Part shown: positions 43,562 through 50,415 of the stretch, piece by piece
Layout of the letters: the number at the start of each line of letters is the position of its first letter
How positions within the stretch are numbered: position 1 is the first letter of the stretch
Assembly: GCF_000026545.1 (NCBI RefSeq)
Contig: NC_011601.1
Strand: one strand, 5' to 3'
Origin: Escherichia coli O127:H6 str. E2348/69
GTDB lineage: Bacteria; Pseudomonadota; Gammaproteobacteria; Enterobacterales; Enterobacteriaceae
DNA length: 64,000 bases
Notes under the pieces: model-generated
What the model was told of the DNA's origin: nothing
The model's input: the letters and a program-made list of their open reading frames with translations, nothing else
The model's database searches: none
Translations under genes and position numbers: made by a program

Positions 43562-43741
43562 ATGAGAAAAATACTGGTGTATTTATGTATTAGCATATGG
43601 ATTGTTATATCATGCGTGCCTATCATATTAACTAGCGAGTATTTAACAGAGGCGAGTATAATGGCATTGATGTTTGGTCATGCCAATGCACTATGTATTG
43701 GGGTTTTTATTTCTATTATTTATATAGAATGCTGGAGGTAA
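43562..43741 (+). CDS. Hypothetical small membrane protein (59 aa)
   Basis: ATG-initiated ORF with two hydrophobic segments in the AT-rich islet; no recognisable SD. Confidence 0.25.
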   Translation: MRKILVYLCISIWIVISCVPIILTSEYLTEASIMALMFGHANALCIGVFISIIYIECWR

Positions 43742-44149
43742 ATAGTGTGAACAGCATTAGTTTGATGATTTTATACTGAACTAAAGGGGGAAAGAGGCAA
43801 CGAAAAAAGACCTCCACCAGGTACGAATCTGAGGCGGGCAGATGGAGGTCGATATCTACACGATTAAATTGATAAGTAAAAGCCCCATCAGGGGTTGATT
43901 TGTTCGAGTCTAATTTAAAGTAATTTCAACGATTTGGCAGAATTTCTTAGAGTTAATGATTTTCAAGTTTTCGATTACCAGGAAAAAGGCTGGGAGCTGA
44001 TAAAATAGTCATCTGCATTCCTTAAATTGTGTAAGGGTGAAAGGATAAAGTTCAATTTAAAGGCGGTACAATATTAGCACCATCTTATATATGTAATGAT
44101 TGATTTGCCTCTTTATTCTACTGTTGAGATTATTGTTTCCGAAAATTGA

Positions 44150-44755
44150 TTATTATCAGCGCGAAAAGAAATGCTACAGCAAATAAGAGGACGATTGTCG
44201 GCGCTGGGGCTCTGTCGAGAAAATATAATAACCATACGCCTGATATTGTTATTGATATCGTTACGGCGATAAGTAATGCCTTATGAAAGCGACGCGTGGT
44301 GAGGACAGCAATAGACCCTGGAGCTGTTAATAGTATATAGACAGAATAATTCCGACTGCTTTTAATGTGGCAAAAATGGTAGGCGATACCATGCAGAGTA
44401 AACTGTAATGTAATAATGATATCTGTAATCCGCTGACTTGTGCCTGTTGATAGTCAAGACAAAAATTCCTGAAAAAACGATACCTATAATGGTATCTTTC
44501 TTTATGATGCTATTATCTTTCAGATAGCCAGTTGCAATTGCACAAGACAGTCCTACAATAAATGCACCAATTCCCAGCGGCATACCTATAATCCAGGCTA
44601 GAACTATGCCAGGAAACATTGCGTGGTTCATTGCATCTCCTATTAGCGCCCAGTCTTTTAATACCAGAAAAACTGATAATAATGCACAGGGAACGATATT
44701 ATAATAGCGATTATCAATGCATAATTCATAAATTTAAATTGTAATGATTAGAGGG
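44150..44755 (-). pseudogene. Degenerate ABC-transporter permease-like gene (multiple frame breaks)
   Basis: Minus-strand hydrophobic fragments in several frames, including the 89-aa ORF 44362-44631; reminiscent of metal ABC permeases. Confidence 0.35.
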
Positions 44756-44817
44756 TAAAATGTCAGCACATTTGCGAAATGAATCAAAAAGCCCGCAGCA
44801 ATGTGCGGGCGTTAGTG

Positions 44818-45333
<516 letters not shown>

Positions 45334-45392
45334 TTAGATCAAAGGAGGATGAATAGGCAGAAAAAGCCCGCCAAAACAGCGGGCAGGGGGAT

Positions 45393-46526
45393 TTAGAACT
45401 GATAAACCAGACCTAAAGCGACGATATCATCGGTAGAGATGCCGTTGGCAGCGTAGAAACTGTCATCTTCATCCAACAGGTTGATTTTATAGTCAACATA
45501 GGTGGACATGTTTTTATTGAAATAGTAAGTCGCGCCAACATCGGCGTATTTAACCAGATCTTTATCATCAACACCTGCTGGGTTGTCTGCACCACCGGCA
45601 GCGTGCAGGTCACGGCCTTTAGACATCAGGAAAGAGACTGTCGGACGCAGACCAAAATCAAACTGGTACTGTGCAGTGACTTCAAAGTTCTGGGTTTTGT
45701 TTGCAACAGCATAATCGCTGTCGCCAAACGGGGTCATATTACGCGTTTCTGAATACATGGTTGCCAGGTAAATATTGTTAGCATCGTATTTTAGCCCAGC
45801 AGTCCACGCGTCTGCTTTATCACCACCCGCCGCAGTATGGTTAACCTGGTCATTGGTGCGGTCAGAAGAGGTGTATGCCGCACCAGCGCTAAAGCCCATG
45901 CCTAAATCATATGTTGTGGAAAGACCCCAGCCGTCACCGTTTTCATGGCGAACATCACGTCCGTTGTTGGTGCCTTCCTGACCATTACTGGCACCTTCGT
46001 TGTTACCTTGATACTGCACCGCGAAGTTCAGACCATTTACCAGACCGAAGAAATCAGTATTACGATAAGTCGCGACGCCATTGGCACGACCAGTCATAAA
46101 GTTGTCTGCATTGGTATAAGAGTCACCGCCAAATTCAGGTAGCATATCAGTCCAGCCTTCGATGTCGTACATTACGCCATAATTACGTCCGTAATCGAAA
46201 GAACCGTAATCTGCAAATTTCAGTCCGGCAAATGCCAGACGGGTCCATGACTGGTTTGTTGAAGATTCGGTGTTGTTTGCCTGAATATTGTATTCCCATT
46301 GACCGTAGCCAGTGAGTTGATCGTTAATTTGGGTTTCGCCTTTAAAACCCAGACGAGCATAGCTCTGGTCGCCATCTTTCGCTGAATTATCAGAAAAATA
46401 ATGCAGGCCATCAACTTTGCCATACAGATCTAATTTGTTGCCGTCTTTATTATAAACTTCGGCTGCATGTGCAGCACCTGCAGCGAGCAGGGCAGGAATT
46501 AAGAGTGCCAGTACTTTGCTTTTCAT
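45393..46526 (-). CDS. ompN: Outer membrane porin OmpN (OmpC/F family)
   Basis: 377-aa ORF with signal peptide and C-terminal ...LVYQF. Confidence 0.9.
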
Positions 46527-46753
46527 TGAATAAATCCTTTAGTTATTTTATTTGCCTTTCATCCCCATTTCGGGGAGTGAAAACATCCTAAAGGAGAAGT
46601 TCAGTTAGCCGATAAATATCATTTGTTACGCCTTAAGTAAAACCTTAATTAAATAATTCTTCTGAAATGGTAATAAGTCTGGTGAATGTATTGGAAATAA
46701 CACATACAAAATAAAAATTATACTTTTAATTTTCTATACATTATTCTGCGCGG

Positions 46754-46862
46754 GTTATATGCCTTTATTGTCACAGATTTTATTTTCTGTTGGGCCATTG
46801 CATTGCTACTGATTTTCCAACACATAAGAAGACAAGCCCGAACAGTCGTCCGGGCTTTTTTT
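46754..46862 (+). ncRNA. micC: MicC small regulatory RNA
   Basis: Matches recalled MicC (GTTATATGCCTTTATTGTCACAG...) with terminator gcccgaacagtcgtccgggc plus T7; divergent from ompN. Confidence 0.85.
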
Positions 46863-46890
46863 AGAATTGGATAATCCTTATCCAGAGCAT

Positions 46891-49800
46891 TTAATCGGTG
46901 TTGCTTTTTTCCGCTTTTCCGGCCATTTGTGCCAGAAAGTCATAGCGTTTTTGCAAATCAGCTGCAGCATCTTTCCATAACTGTTCTGCCACTTCTGGCT
47001 GCTGCGAATTCAGACGACGGAAACGCTGCTCGTGAAGTAACGTTTCTTCCAGTGCTTCTGACGGCGGGCGTGAATCCAGCGCCAGCGGCAGTTTGCCTTC
47101 ATCGGCACGACGAGGATCGAAGCGATATAACGGCCAGAAGCCGGTAGCAGTGAGTTGGCGCATCTGATCGTGGCTGAGTGCCAGATCGTAACCATGCTCT
47201 TCACATGGGCTATAAGCGATGATCAGCGATGGCCCCGGATACGCTTCCGCTTCCTGAATCGCTTTCACCGTCTGGTTCAGCTGCGCGCCGAGAGAAATCT
47301 GCGCCACATAAACATGACCGTACATCATCATACTGACGCCAAGATCTTTACGCGCTTTACGTTTGCCATGCTCGCCAAACTTAGTTACTGCACCCAGCGG
47401 TGTCGCTTTCGATGCCTGACCACCGGTGTTGGAATAGCATTGCGTATCCAGCACCAGAATGTTGACGTTTTCTGTCAAACTCAATACATGATCCAGACCG
47501 CCAAAGCCGATATCGTAAGCCCAGCCATCGCCACCAATCAGCCAGATTGATTTTTCCACCAGTGCATCTGCGTCACGCAGCAGTTCATGTGCTTCGGCAA
47601 CATCGTTGAGTTGCTGGCGTAAAGCTGCAACCTGTTCACGACGAACCTCTGGCGTGGCGTCTGATTTCAACGCAGTCAGTAATTCCGCCGGGATTTTATC
47701 GGCAAATTGATCGAGCAGACGCAGCACGCGGACACGGTGTTGATCGACCGTCAGGCGGAAACCAAGGCCAAATTCGGCGTTATCTTCAAACAGCGAGTTC
47801 GCCCATGCCGGTCCACGACCATTGGCATCGGTGGTATATGGTGTTGAAGGCAGGTTACCGCCGTATATTGAAGAACAGCCAGTGGCATTAGCGATCAACA
47901 TCCGGTCGCCATAGAGCTGAGTCAGCAATTTAATATACGGCGTCTCGCCACAACCGGAGCAAGCACCGGAATATTCAAACAGCGGTGTAATCAGCTGCGA
48001 TGTACGAATATCAATACGTTCCAGTTTGCTACGGTCGATTTCTGGCAGGTTGAGGAAGAAATCGTAATTGATTTTCTCTTCTTCGACATGTTCCAGGCGC
48101 GACATCATATTGATGGCTTTAATCTCTGGATTCTGACGGTCTTTCGCCGGGCAAACTTCGACGCACAGGTTACAACCGGTGCAATCTTCCGGAGCCACCT
48201 GCAAGACATATTTCTGCCCGCGCATATCACGCGATTTCACATCCAGCGAATGCAGGCTGGCAGGGGCGTTTTCCATCGCTTCAGGCGGTACCACTTTTGC
48301 GCGAATAGCTGAGTGTGGGCAAGCGGCGACACAGTGGTTACATTGGGTACAGAGTTCCTCTTTCCAGATGGGGATCTCTTCGGCGATATTGCGTTTTTCC
48401 CAGCGCGTGGTGCCCATCGGCCAGGTGCCGTCTGGCGGCAGCGCCGAAACGGGGAGGGCGTCGCCAAGCCCGGCGAGCATCGCAGCGGTTACGGTTTTCA
48501 CGAAATCAGGAGCGGCATCGGAAACCACTGGCGGTCGATTGGCGCTATGCGGATTAACTGGCTGCAGTGGAACTTCTTCTACGGATTCACGCGCCAGCGC
48601 CAGAGCCTGCCAGTTGCGTTCCACCAGATCCTGGCCTTTGCTACTGTAACTTTTGGCAATCGCACCCTGCAATTCTGCGAGGGCACTATCGCCAGGCAGA
48701 ATCTGCGTCAGATGGAAAAAAGCCATCTGCATGACGGTATTAATACGGGCCGCCAGGCCACATTCGCGGGCGATTTTCGCCGCGTTAATCACATAGAAGC
48801 GCGCTTTTTTCTGGTTTAGCACGGCCTGAACTTCCTGCGGCAAGCGCGACCACACTTCAACTGCGCTGTACGGCGTGTTGAGCAGGAAAATGCCGCCAGG
48901 TTTTAAACGCTCAGCCATCTGATATTTATCGATAAACTGCAACTGGTGGCAGCCAACAAAATCAGCCTGGGAAATGAGATAAGCGGAACGAATCGGCTGT
49001 TCGCTCACGCGAAGGTGAGAAACCGTCAGGCCGCCCGCCTTTTTGGAATCGTAAACAAAATAGCCCTGTGCGTACCACGGCGTGGAATTACCGATAATCT
49101 TGATATTGTTTTTGGTCGCGGAAACGCTGCCATCACTACCAAGGCCATAAAACAAGGCTTCCAGTTTCGCCGAGTTTGGTAGGGTGTTTTCCGGCAACGG
49201 CAGTGACAGATTGGTTACATCATCGTAAATACCAACCGTAAAGCGCGCTTTCGGTTTAGCCGCGTTGAGCTCGGCAAATACCGCCAGTACACAGTCCGGG
49301 CCAAATTCTTTGGATGAAAGACCATAGCGCCCACCAATGACACGGGGCAGGGTTTCGCGCTCGCCATTATTAAAGGCTTCTGCCAGTGCGGTCATCACAT
49401 CCAGGTACAGGGGTTCCGCTTGCGCACCTGGCTCTTTGGTTCTGTCCAGTACCGCCACGTTGCGCACGGATCCCGGCAGAGCTAGCAGCAAGTGTTTGGC
49501 GGAGAAGGGGCGGTACAGGCGAACTTTCAGCACGCCGACTTTTTCGCCACGGGTCAGCAATTCATCAACCACTTCTTCACTGGTGCCAATGGCAGAGCCC
49601 ATCAGGATAATCACCCGTTCCGCTTGCGGATGCCCGTAATACTCAAACGGCTGATACTGACGACCTGTCGCGGCAGCGAAATCATTCATCGCCTGTTCAA
49701 CATGGTCATAGACCGCGTTGTACCATGGGTTGGTGGCTTCGCGAGACTGGAAATAAGTGTCAGGATTGGCGGACGTACCGCGGATCACCGGATGTTCCGG

Positions 49801-50415
49801 GTTGAGTGCCCGGGCGCGATGAGCATCAATTTCTGCCTGCGGCATCAGTTCAAGAATCGTGTCATCGGCCAGCGGGACAATTTTATTGATTTCGTGGGAT
49901 GTGCGGAAACCATCAAAGAAATGAATAAATGGCACGCGGCTTTTCAGCGTCGCGATGTGCGAAATGAGAGCAAAGTCTTGCGCTTCCTGGACGTTTGCTG
50001 CACACAACATCGCGCAACCCGTCTGGCGCACCGCCATAACGTCGGAATGATCGCCAAAAATAGAGAGTGCATGTGTGGCAACGGTACGTGCCGCAACATG
50101 CAGGACAAACGGTGTGAGTTCGCCTGCCAGTTTGTACAGCGTCGGGATCATCAGCAGCAAACCCTGCGATGACGTAAACGATGTTGAGAGGGCACCAGTT
50201 TGCAAAGCACCATGCACGGTAGCGATAGCACCCGCTTCCGACTGCATTTCAACCACGCGTGGTGTGTCTCCCCAAACGTTTTTCAAGCCGTTTCCGGCCC
50301 ATGCATCAGCCTGTTCTGCCATCGTGGAACTGGGGGTAATAGGGTAGATGGCGATAACTTCACTGGTGCGAAACGCCACCGAAGCAACCGCGCCATTACC
50401 GTCAATAGTAATCAT
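46891..50415 (-). CDS. ydbK: Pyruvate:flavodoxin/ferredoxin oxidoreductase
   Basis: 1174-aa ORF with two 4Fe-4S ferredoxin motifs (CTQCNHCVAACP; CTGCNLCVEVCP) and TPP-binding region. Confidence 0.9.
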   Translation of the reverse strand: MITIDGNGAVASVAFRTSEVIAIYPITPSSTMAEQADAWAGNGLKNVWGDTPRVVEMQSEAGAIATVHGALQTGALSTSFTSSQGLLLMIPTLYKLAGELTPFVLHVAARTVATHALSIFGDHSDVMAVRQTGCAMLCAANVQEAQDFALISHIATLKSRVPFIHFFDGFRTSHEINKIVPLADDTILELMPQAEIDAHRARALNPEHPVIRGTSANPDTYFQSREATNPWYNAVYDHVEQAMNDFAAATGRQYQPFEYYGHPQAERVIILMGSAIGTSEEVVDELLTRGEKVGVLKVRLYRPFSAKHLLLALPGSVRNVAVLDRTKEPGAQAEPLYLDVMTALAEAFNNGERETLPRVIGGRYGLSSKEFGPDCVLAVFAELNAAKPKARFTVGIYDDVTNLSLPLPENTLPNSAKLEALFYGLGSDGSVSATKNNIKIIGNSTPWYAQGYFVYDSKKAGGLTVSHLRVSEQPIRSAYLISQADFVGCHQLQFIDKYQMAERLKPGGIFLLNTPYSAVEVWSRLPQEVQAVLNQKKARFYVINAAKIARECGLAARINTVMQMAFFHLTQILPGDSALAELQGAIAKSYSSKGQDLVERNWQALALARESVEEVPLQPVNPHSANRPPVVSDAAPDFVKTVTAAMLAGLGDALPVSALPPDGTWPMGTTRWEKRNIAEEIPIWKEELCTQCNHCVAACPHSAIRAKVVPPEAMENAPASLHSLDVKSRDMRGQKYVLQVAPEDCTGCNLCVEVCPAKDRQNPEIKAINMMSRLEHVEEEKINYDFFLNLPEIDRSKLERIDIRTSQLITPLFEYSGACSGCGETPYIKLLTQLYGDRMLIANATGCSSIYGGNLPSTPYTTDANGRGPAWANSLFEDNAEFGLGFRLTVDQHRVRVLRLLDQFADKIPAELLTALKSDATPEVRREQVAALRQQLNDVAEAHELLRDADALVEKSIWLIGGDGWAYDIGFGGLDHVLSLTENVNILVLDTQCYSNTGGQASKATPLGAVTKFGEHGKRKARKDLGVSMMMYGHVYVAQISLGAQLNQTVKAIQEAEAYPGPSLIIAYSPCEEHGYDLALSHDQMRQLTATGFWPLYRFDPRRADEGKLPLALDSRPPSEALEETLLHEQRFRRLNSQQPEVAEQLWKDAAADLQKRYDFLAQMAGKAEKSNTD

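What the first reader, a model, noticed from the sequence alone, without database searches (positions are those of the whole stretch)
46754..46862. micC sRNA, divergent from ompN and convergent with ydbK
The sRNA is recognisable by sequence with small differences from my recollection of the K-12 copy (for example tgctactg and cacataagaag), consistent with a non-K-12 lineage. Its terminator lies only about 30 bp from the ydbK stop.
Basis: established knowledge. Interest (0 to 1): 0.25.

Follow-up and report, generated by a model that had tools for sequence, protein, structure and literature searches.

The report
Known MicC small RNA, B2 allele
This is the well-known small regulatory RNA MicC, which shuts down the porin OmpC; it sits in its usual place in an E. 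coli E2348/69-type genome as a common natural variant with its target-binding end unchanged, so the finding is correct but ordinary.

Summary
Confirmed and ordinary. Window 46754-46862 (+) is micC. Rfam MicC (RF00121) matches end to end at 121.4 bits against a threshold of 90. The gene lies between ompN, which is divergent, and ydbK/nifJ, which is convergent with its stop 28 nt away.

The window around it is 100% identical to E. coli E2348/69. Against K-12 micC, nt 1-53, including the 22-nt ompC-pairing 5' end, are identical. All three substitutions fall in unpaired, variable positions.

This haplotype occurs in 859 of 5,426 complete E. coli genomes, including S88, Nissle 1917 and UTI89. The K-12 haplotype occurs in about 3,635. 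The E2348/69 ompC leader is identical to K-12's. A 2026 preprint shows that MicC overexpression represses OmpC in UTI89, which carries this exact allele.

One side lead is unproven. The MicC stem-loop-2 loop has a second complementarity to the ompC leader, collinear with the seed duplex. It is conserved in only some enterobacteria.

The parts
46754..46862 (+). micC gene (MicC sRNA), 109 nt, from +1 G to the last T of the terminator tail
   Evidence: Rfam RF00121 scores 121.4 bits against a gathering score of 90. The stretch aligns base for base with K-12 b4427. It is 100% identical to micC of S88, Nissle 1917 and UTI89.
46754..46775 (+). 5' target-pairing region (nt 1-22). Nt 1-16 form a perfect duplex with ompC leader -30..-15, and nt 1-12 are the seed used on ompD in Salmonella.
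   Evidence: The region is identical to K-12. The duplex of nt 1-22 with the ompC leader is -26.5 kcal/mol, reached by 0 of 1000 shuffles. The E2348/69 ompC leader is identical to K-12's. The 22-bp duplex and the 12-nt seed are described in PMC5745476 and PMC3469820.
46788..46822 (+). Stem-loop 2: stem nt 35-40 / 64-69 (UGUUGG / CCAACA) with a large loop, nt 41-63. The loop carries the C54U substitution at 46807.
   Evidence: The stem is in the Rfam consensus structure. RNAalifold on 17 enterobacterial MicC sequences gives a compensatory U-A (Escherichia) versus C-G (Citrobacter, Salmonella) pair at the base of the stem.
46823..46833 (+). Single-stranded A/U-rich linker between stem-loop 2 and the terminator. 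It carries U70C (46823) and A75G (46828).
   Evidence: The linker is unpaired in the Rfam consensus and in the alignment consensus, and its columns are variable. A role in Hfq binding is inferred from general sRNA architecture and was not tested.
46834..46862 (+). Rho-independent terminator: hairpin nt 81-104 (AAGCCCGAAC AGUC GUCCGGGCUU, with one A.C mismatch) and a 7-U tail (46856-46862).
   Evidence: The Rfam structure line and MFE folds show the hairpin. It is invariant in 17 sequences except for the loop-closing pair. The simple terminator scan called it only on the - strand, because the A.C mismatch becomes a G.U pair there.
46697..46753 (+). micC promoter region. The likely -10 is TATTCT at 46742-46747. 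The stretch differs from K-12 at -14 (A vs G), -21 (T vs G) and further upstream.
   Evidence: Alignment with K-12. ATTCTGCGCGG immediately upstream of +1 and AAAATTATAC near -40 are conserved in Citrobacter and Salmonella. The -10 assignment is inferred from spacing to +1 and is not mapped here. The generic promoter scan's only hit (46697-46724) does not fit this +1.
45393..46526 (-). ompN (quiescent porin), divergent neighbour
   Evidence: A 377-aa ORF, annotated as porin OmpN in the identical E2348/69 stretch.
46891..50415 (-). ydbK / nifJ (pyruvate:flavodoxin oxidoreductase), convergent neighbour; stop codon at 46891-46893
   Evidence: A 1174-aa ORF, annotated as nifJ in E2348/69 and as ydbK in K-12.
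46866..46885 (-). Small A/U-rich hairpin (CUGGAUAA GGA UUAUCCA) just after the ydbK stop. On the ydbK strand it lies upstream of the reverse reading of the micC terminator hairpin.
   Evidence: The - strand fold of 46815-46900 shows two hairpins at -24.5 kcal/mol, z = -2.74. The stretch is identical in K-12. No function was tested.

Best explanation
This is the chromosomal micC gene of an E2348/69-type E. coli. It is transcribed away from ompN into a roughly 109-nt sRNA that ends at its own intrinsic terminator. The unstructured 5' end (nt 1-22, with 16 contiguous pairs) base-pairs with the ompC mRNA leader just upstream of the ribosome-binding site. This blocks 30S binding and lowers OmpC synthesis. 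In relatives that have OmpD, the first 12 nt also guide RNase E to the ompD coding sequence. The three substitutions and the shorter U-tail relative to K-12 are neutral, lineage-typical polymorphisms in the variable body of the RNA. Shown here: identity, coordinates, context, seed and target-site conservation, and allele distribution. Taken from the literature: Hfq dependence, the translational block, and repression of OmpC by this same allele in UTI89. Inferred: that the gene is expressed and functions the same way in this particular strain.
For: Full-length Rfam MicC hit at 121.4 bits against a gathering score of 90. Canonical synteny ompN <- micC -> <- ydbK, as in K-12 where micC is annotated as b4427. 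Nt 1-53 are identical to K-12, with 3 substitutions and a 7-U versus 9-U tail further on. The seed-ompC duplex is -26.5 kcal/mol, reached by 0 of 1000 shuffles. The ompC leader from -100 to +32 is identical in E2348/69 and K-12. An 83-nt stretch of that leader is exact in 5,339 of 5,426 complete genomes. The substitutions fall in loop and linker columns that vary across 17 enterobacterial MicC sequences, while the seed, the stem-loop 2 stem (with compensatory changes) and the terminator are conserved. The same haplotype is in 859 of 5,426 genomes and in UTI89 with 0 mismatches. In UTI89, MicC overexpression represses OmpC (preprint 10.64898/2026.07.27.741068). The mechanism is as summarised in PMC5745476 (22-bp duplex, block of 30S binding, Hfq) and PMC3469820 (12-nt seed, ompD, RNase E).
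Against: RefSeq (PGAP) does not annotate micC in E2348/69 or in the other PGAP-annotated genomes listed; it is annotated only in the curated K-12 record. The single-sequence MFE fold is not distinctive (z = -1.0), which is usual for an sRNA with a long single-stranded 5' end. The simple terminator scan did not call the terminator on the + strand, because of the A.C mismatch that K-12 also has. The promoter differs from K-12 at -14 and -21, so expression level could differ.
Confidence: 0.97

Rival explanations
1. The allele is a functionally altered MicC. The linker substitutions (U70C, A75G), the loop substitution (C54U), the shorter 7-U tail and the promoter changes at -14 and -21 would alter Hfq binding, stability or expression, so that this lineage regulates OmpC differently from K-12.
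For: The differences are real and lie partly in the A/U-rich linker and the U-tail, the kind of region that Hfq-dependent sRNAs use. The predicted ensemble structure differs between the alleles; for example, the linker is 60% unpaired in the window allele and 8% in K-12. The UTI89 preprint reports that deleting micC did not consistently raise OmpC, unlike in K-12.
Against: All three positions lie in columns that vary freely among enterobacterial MicC sequences. The haplotype is common, at 859 genomes. Overexpressing it in UTI89 still clearly represses OmpC. Seven U residues is also the tail length of the Salmonella diarizonae copy.
Confidence: 0.1
2. MicC recognises ompC through two collinear sites. 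Besides the 5' seed (nt 1-16 with ompC -30..-15), the stem-loop 2 loop (GCCAUUGCA, nt 41-49, optionally extended by nt 54-61) would pair with ompC -50..-42 (UGCAGUGGC), extended to -58. This would form a long interrupted antisense duplex.
For: The loop segment nt 40-66 against the upstream ompC leader gives -27.6 kcal/mol, reached by 0 of 1000 shuffles. Only 11 of 8,526 genomic 60-nt windows are as good, and that count includes micC's own antisense. Co-folding forms both duplexes at once, and they are collinear. The core helix alone is -13.8 kcal/mol, and both partners are partly accessible. Comparable complementarity (z -2.8 to -4.7) is seen in S. diarizonae, C. sedlakii, Citrobacter sp. R56 and Citrobacter sp. 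Awk 4. C54U keeps the alternative register through a G.U pair.
Against: The site was found post hoc. It is absent (z > -1.7) in 5 of 12 genome pairs: Citrobacter sp. FP75, Citrobacter sp. Res13, two C. youngae genomes and the divergent 'E. coli' SCPM-O-B-8794. In those genomes there is no compensating change in the nearly invariant ompC leader. A natural E. coli allele found in about 129 genomes deletes the CAUUG core. The AAUCAGU part of the target is buried in the leader's own hairpin, with P(unpaired) about 0.1. The literature I could read describes only the 22-nt 5' duplex. The pattern also fits a decaying relic of ancestral antisense homology.
Confidence: 0.15
3. The hairpin at 46834-46857 serves mainly as the terminator of the convergent ydbK gene (a shared bidirectional terminator). 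Any ydbK read-through towards ompN would then produce an anti-MicC transcript.
For: Read on the - strand, the hairpin has 10 uninterrupted pairs, because the A.C mismatch becomes G.U, and it is followed by a U-rich UUGUCUUCUUAU. It is the only terminator-like site the scan found in 46400-47000. It lies 34 nt after the ydbK stop. A paper cited in PMC5745476 (Fabrega et al. 2012, title only seen) reports SoxS-dependent co-regulation of ompN and ydbK.
Against: This reading is compatible with micC rather than an alternative to it. The U-tract on the - strand is interrupted and weak. I found no transcript-end data, and the Fabrega paper could not be read.
Confidence: 0.3

Closest known systems
MicC of E. 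coli K-12 (b4427; Rfam RF00121)
   Same: The locus is the same (ompN-micC-ydbK). The first 53 nt are identical, including the 22-nt ompC-pairing region. The terminator hairpin, including its A.C mismatch, is identical. The ompC leader target is identical.
   Different: C54U in the stem-loop 2 loop; U70C and A75G in the linker; a 7-U rather than 9-U tail; eight substitutions in the ompN-micC intergenic region, including -14 and -21 of the promoter.
MicC of UTI89, S88 and Nissle 1917
   Same: The 109-nt sequence is identical. UTI89 MicC has been studied experimentally: overexpression represses OmpC, and deletion impairs bladder, gut and bloodstream fitness (preprint 10.64898/2026.07.27.741068).
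   Different: Nothing within the RNA itself. The host here is an E2348/69-type strain, and the flanking 201 nt are >=99% identical in only 203 genomes.
Salmonella MicC (ompC leader and ompD coding-sequence targeting with RNase E)
   Same: The 5' 22 nt, the stem-loop 2 architecture, the linker and the terminator are the same; S. diarizonae MicC is also 109 nt with a 7-U tail. The mechanism by which the 12-nt seed guides RNase E is described in PMC3469820.
   Different: The body sequence is diverged. The stem-loop 2 stem uses C-G where Escherichia has U-A. No ompD target was examined here.
MicF / ompC arrangement
   Same: Both are porin-repressing Hfq-dependent sRNAs encoded divergently from another porin gene and acting by imperfect antisense pairing near the ribosome-binding site (PMC5745476).
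   Different: MicF is a different RNA family with a different target (ompF) and a different neighbour (ompC).

Membership tests
MicC sRNA (Rfam RF00121) | Covariance-model score at or above the curated gathering score, over the full model | tested here: met
   121.4 bits against 90; model positions 1-123 of 123; E = 1.2e-18.
MicC sRNA (Rfam RF00121) | A 5' end of about 22 nt complementary to the ompC mRNA leader just upstream of the ribosome-binding site | tested here: met
   Nt 1-22 are identical to K-12. Sixteen contiguous pairs form with ompC -30..-15; the duplex is -26.5 kcal/mol, reached by 0 of 1000 shuffles. The ompC leader of E2348/69 is identical to K-12's.
MicC sRNA (Rfam RF00121) | Genomic position between ompN and ydbK, divergent from ompN | tested here: met
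   ORFs and RefSeq annotation of the identical E2348/69 stretch and of K-12.
MicC sRNA (Rfam RF00121) | Internal stem-loop (SL2) supported by compensatory changes, followed by an A/U-rich linker | tested here: met
   RNAalifold on 17 sequences: the pair at columns 37/73 is C-G in 9 sequences and U-A in 4; the pair at 39/71 is U.G in 10 and U-A in 5. The first 16 nt of that alignment were fixed by the search pattern, so their invariance is not evidence.
MicC sRNA (Rfam RF00121) | Rho-independent terminator with a U-tail at the 3' end | tested here: met
   A 9-pair hairpin with one A.C mismatch plus 7 U. The generic scan missed it on the + strand because of the mismatch; K-12 has the same hairpin.
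MicC sRNA (Rfam RF00121) | Expressed as a discrete Hfq-binding transcript of about 109 nt | not testable with these tools
   Literature only: K-12 (Chen et al. 2004, as summarised in PMC5745476) and Salmonella (PMC3469820).
MicC sRNA (Rfam RF00121) | Represses OmpC synthesis | not testable with these tools
   Literature: overexpression in UTI89 represses OmpC (preprint). UTI89 carries the identical allele.

The most novel reading that the evidence does not exclude
The large loop of MicC stem-loop 2 may be more than a passive scaffold. It could be a second ompC-recognition element: GCCAUUGCA (nt 41-49) would pair with ompC -50..-42, collinear with the seed duplex. It is present in Escherichia, Salmonella and part of Citrobacter, and lost in other lineages and in one E. 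coli allele class. If so, natural micC alleles would differ in how strongly they grip ompC. The widely used synthetic 'MicC scaffold', which as I recall retains this loop, might then have a built-in affinity for the ompC leader.
Probability: 0.15. Interest if true: 0.4.

Novelty: already known. Interest (0 to 1): 0.1.

Why it matters
It matters little as a discovery, because micC has been known since 2004 and this allele is common. The practical value is in annotation. RefSeq/PGAP does not annotate micC in E2348/69 or in most E. coli genomes, so the coordinates 46754-46862 (+) add a real gene to the map. The allele survey may help anyone comparing MicC function between K-12 and pathogenic strains. 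It gives the K-12 type in about 67% of complete genomes, this type in about 16%, a divergent third type in about 2%, and occasional IS1 knock-outs. That comparison has become relevant now that MicC has been linked to ExPEC fitness in UTI89, which carries this exact allele.

Tried and rejected
1. ompN as a MicC target through an ompD-like site at codons 23-26. The seed duplex there is only -6.4 kcal/mol, no better than 31% of background windows, and the best site anywhere in ompN is -15.8. Rejected.

2. The window holds no other copy of the seed complement AAGGCATATAAC; the only match, at up to 1 mismatch, is micC itself.

3. I expected the divergent micC of 'E. coli' SCPM-O-B-8794 (L062) to explain the 129 genomes at 80-90% identity. 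It does not occur in the complete-genome set. The 129 genomes carry a different allele, the EM10-18-28 type.

4. Full-length RNAduplex of MicC against the leader gives an artefactual all-over duplex, so I replaced it with segment-wise tests and co-folding.

5. The generic promoter scan's only hit (46697-46724) does not fit the micC +1.

6. Chen et al. 2004 (PMC522180) is not held, so its figures could not be checked for the second site.

7. A literature search for micC together with bidirectional terminators found nothing relevant.

Only about 25 enterobacterial loci were usable.

9. Small mechanical ORFs overlapping micC (23-35 aa) have no support and were ignored.

Full report
OBSERVATION. 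A scan of the whole window against Rfam 15 at gathering thresholds gave three hits. One is MicC (RF00121) at 46751-46871 on the + strand: 121.4 bits against a gathering score of 90, E = 1.2e-18, covering model positions 1-123 of 123. The sequence from 46754 (G of GTTATATGCC) to 46862 (last T of the T-run) is 109 nt.

CONTEXT. A 377-aa ORF at 45393-46526 (- strand) and an 1174-aa ORF at 46891-50415 (- strand) flank the RNA. Window 43700-49900 is 100% identical to E. coli E2348/69 (NZ_CP059840.2), where these ORFs are annotated as porin OmpN and as NifJ, the pyruvate:flavodoxin oxidoreductase called YdbK in K-12. The curated K-12 record annotates micC (b4427) in the same position between ompN and ydbK. 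So micC is divergent from ompN, with 227 nt between the ompN ATG and micC +1. It is convergent with ydbK, whose stop codon (46891-46893) lies 28 nt beyond the last T of micC. PGAP does not annotate micC in E2348/69 or in the other RefSeq genomes listed.

COMPARISON WITH K-12. Alignment of the whole ompN-ydbK intergenic region shows that micC nt 1-53 are identical. Three substitutions follow: C54U at 46807, U70C at 46823 and A75G at 46828. The terminator T-run is 7 here and 9 in K-12. Upstream of micC, the ompN-micC intergenic region has eight substitutions. Two are close to the start: A for G at -14 and T for G at -21 relative to +1.

SEED AND TARGET. The 5' 22 nt, which the literature identifies as the ompC-pairing region, are unchanged. 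The literature describes a 22-bp duplex that blocks 30S binding and depends on Hfq (PMC5745476). It also describes a 12-nt seed that guides RNase E on ompD in Salmonella (PMC3469820). Nt 1-16 form a perfect duplex with ompC -30..-15. The nt 1-22 duplex is -26.5 kcal/mol, which none of 1000 shuffles reached. I located ompC in E2348/69 (L129:11129-12244). Its leader from -100 to +32 is identical to K-12's. Across the species, an 83-nt stretch of the leader is exact in 5,339 of 5,426 complete genomes.

WHERE THE SUBSTITUTIONS FALL. I collected MicC from 17 genomes: the window, K-12, two divergent Escherichia alleles, Salmonella diarizonae, nine Citrobacter genomes, Superficieibacter, Pseudocitrobacter and an unnamed Enterobacteriaceae MAG. 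In their alignment, the seed, the stem-loop 2 stem and the terminator are conserved. The seed's invariance is forced by the search pattern over its first 16 nt, so it is not independent evidence. The stem shows a compensatory change: U-A in Escherichia against C-G in Citrobacter and Salmonella. Nt 54 lies in the large loop. Nt 70 and 75 lie in the single-stranded linker before the terminator. All three are in variable, unpaired columns.

ALLELE FREQUENCY. A 36-nt probe spanning the three sites found the window haplotype exactly in 859 of 5,426 complete E. coli genomes. The K-12 haplotype was exact in about 3,635. The full 109 nt are 100% identical in S88, Nissle 1917 and SK1144, and in UTI89 with 0 mismatches. 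This is therefore a common non-K-12 micC allele, carried by several well-known pathogenic and probiotic strains. A 2026 preprint on UTI89 reports that overexpressing MicC clearly lowers OmpC, and that deleting micC impairs colonisation and stress resistance (10.64898/2026.07.27.741068). That work was done on exactly this allele.

MECHANISM. The best-supported explanation is the textbook one. The promoter upstream of 46754 drives a roughly 109-nt RNA. The likely -10 is TATTCT at 46742-46747, inferred from spacing. Reported regulation is repression by OmpR and induction by beta-lactams or sigma-E depletion, though direct control has not been shown (PMC5745476; PMC5175337). With Hfq, the single-stranded 5' end pairs with the ompC leader and blocks translation initiation. 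The hairpin at 46834-46857 with its U-tail terminates transcription. Identity, anatomy, conservation and the intact target site are shown here. Expression and activity in this strain are inferred from identical sequence in studied strains.

SIDE LEAD: A SECOND COMPLEMENTARITY. While checking the pairing, I noticed that the stem-loop 2 loop is also complementary to the ompC leader. GCCAUUGCA (nt 41-49) matches UGCAGUGGC (-50..-42), with nine pairs including one G.U, at -13.8 kcal/mol. UACUGAUU (nt 54-61) matches AAUCAGUA (-58..-51). The segment nt 40-66 gives -27.6 kcal/mol against the upstream leader, which 0 of 1000 shuffles reached. Only 11 of 8,526 60-nt windows of this 64-kb sequence did as well, and that count includes micC's own antisense. 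Co-folding forms this duplex together with the seed duplex, and the two are collinear. K-12 has a second register, UGCCACUG with CAGUGGCA, and C54U converts one of its pairs to G.U.

Cross-species evidence for the second site is mixed. Comparable complementarity exists in S. diarizonae, C. sedlakii and two other Citrobacter genomes (z -2.8 to -4.7). It is absent in five other genome pairs, and the nearly invariant ompC leader shows no compensating change there. A third E. coli allele class has deleted the CAUUG core. Part of the target also lies inside the leader's own hairpin. I read this as either a decaying relic of ancestral antisense homology or a dispensable auxiliary contact. I give a functional second site about 15%. 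The papers I could read mention only the 22-nt duplex, and Chen et al. 2004 was not available.

SHARED TERMINATOR. On the ydbK strand, the micC terminator hairpin reads as 10 uninterrupted pairs, because the A.C mismatch becomes G.U. A U-rich UUGUCUUCUUAU follows it. A small hairpin right after the ydbK stop precedes it (46866-46885). The - strand fold of 46815-46900 has z = -2.74. This is the only terminator-like site between ydbK and ompN, so it plausibly serves both genes. That is an inference, and I found no transcript-end data.

OTHER VARIATION SEEN. About 129 complete genomes carry a mosaic micC, for example EM10-18-28. Its seed, terminator and ydbK flank are conserved, but its promoter and body are strongly diverged and its loop has a 5-nt deletion. 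IS1 has disrupted micC in at least two strains, EM18-18-42 and LR9-2. The 201-nt probe found no match in 386 genomes. The few 'plasmid' hits include a 299-kb record that also carries nifJ, which points to a mis-assigned chromosomal segment.

VERDICT. The feature is already known and the allele is common and apparently neutral. Interest is low at 0.1. The only part that could become interesting is the second complementarity to ompC, which needs a simple mutational test.

Noticed in passing
window 39675-39792 (+): Full-length Rfam hit to FnrS (frnS, RF01796), 134.8 bits against a gathering score of 60. It lies only about 7 kb from micC. In K-12 the 23-kb Rac prophage (1411899-1434958) ends about 0.2 kb from uspF on this side of micC, so Rac appears to be absent here.
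   Followed up: partly
window 32802-32897 (-): Full-length Rfam hit to McaS/IsrA (RF00115), 112.8 bits against a gathering score of 42.
   Followed up: no
window 46794-46814 (+) versus the ompC leader -63..-42 (elsewhere in the genome; L129:11066-11087): The MicC stem-loop 2 loop has a second complementarity to the ompC leader, collinear with the seed duplex (-27.6 kcal/mol; 0 of 1000 shuffles). It is conserved in Salmonella and some Citrobacter but not in all lineages.
   Followed up: yes
window 46834-46857, both strands: The micC terminator hairpin pairs better on the ydbK strand (10 pairs, with G.U) than on the micC strand (A.C mismatch). The mismatch is present in the three E. coli-type copies (window, K-12, EM10-18-28). 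The other 14 MicC sequences in the alignment, including the divergent 'E. coli' SCPM-O-B-8794 copy, have A-U there. It is possibly a shared bidirectional terminator.
   Followed up: partly
L126:3001-3197 (E. coli EM10-18-28) and about 129 complete genomes: A third, mosaic micC allele class. The seed, the terminator and the ydbK flank are conserved. The promoter and body are about 13% diverged, with a 5-nt deletion in the loop. This looks like an imported recombinant segment.
   Followed up: partly
L124 (EM18-18-42) and L125 (LR9-2): Natural micC knock-outs by IS1. In LR9-2, IS1A is inserted after micC nt 47. In EM18-18-42, IS1B replaces the ompN 5' end and micC nt 1-55.
   Followed up: yes
L062 ('E. 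coli' SCPM-O-B-8794, a GTDB species representative): A strongly diverged micC, with a conserved seed and about 83-87% identity elsewhere. It has no close match among 5,426 complete E. coli genomes, so the strain is probably a cryptic Escherichia lineage.
   Followed up: partly
window about 44130-44729 (-) (L001:431-1030): A frameshifted metal ABC transporter permease pseudogene lies next to uspF. In EM10-18-28 an intact sitA sits at the corresponding side, so this looks like a decayed sit (iron/manganese uptake) operon remnant.
   Followed up: no
E. coli genome collection: 386 of 5,426 complete genomes have no megablast match to the 201-nt micC-ydbK junction. What replaces the locus in them was not examined.
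   Followed up: no
L129:30553-30820 region of E2348/69, outside the window (seen in L128): pmrD is annotated as frameshifted in E2348/69. This was seen while locating ompC and is unrelated to micC.
   Followed up: no
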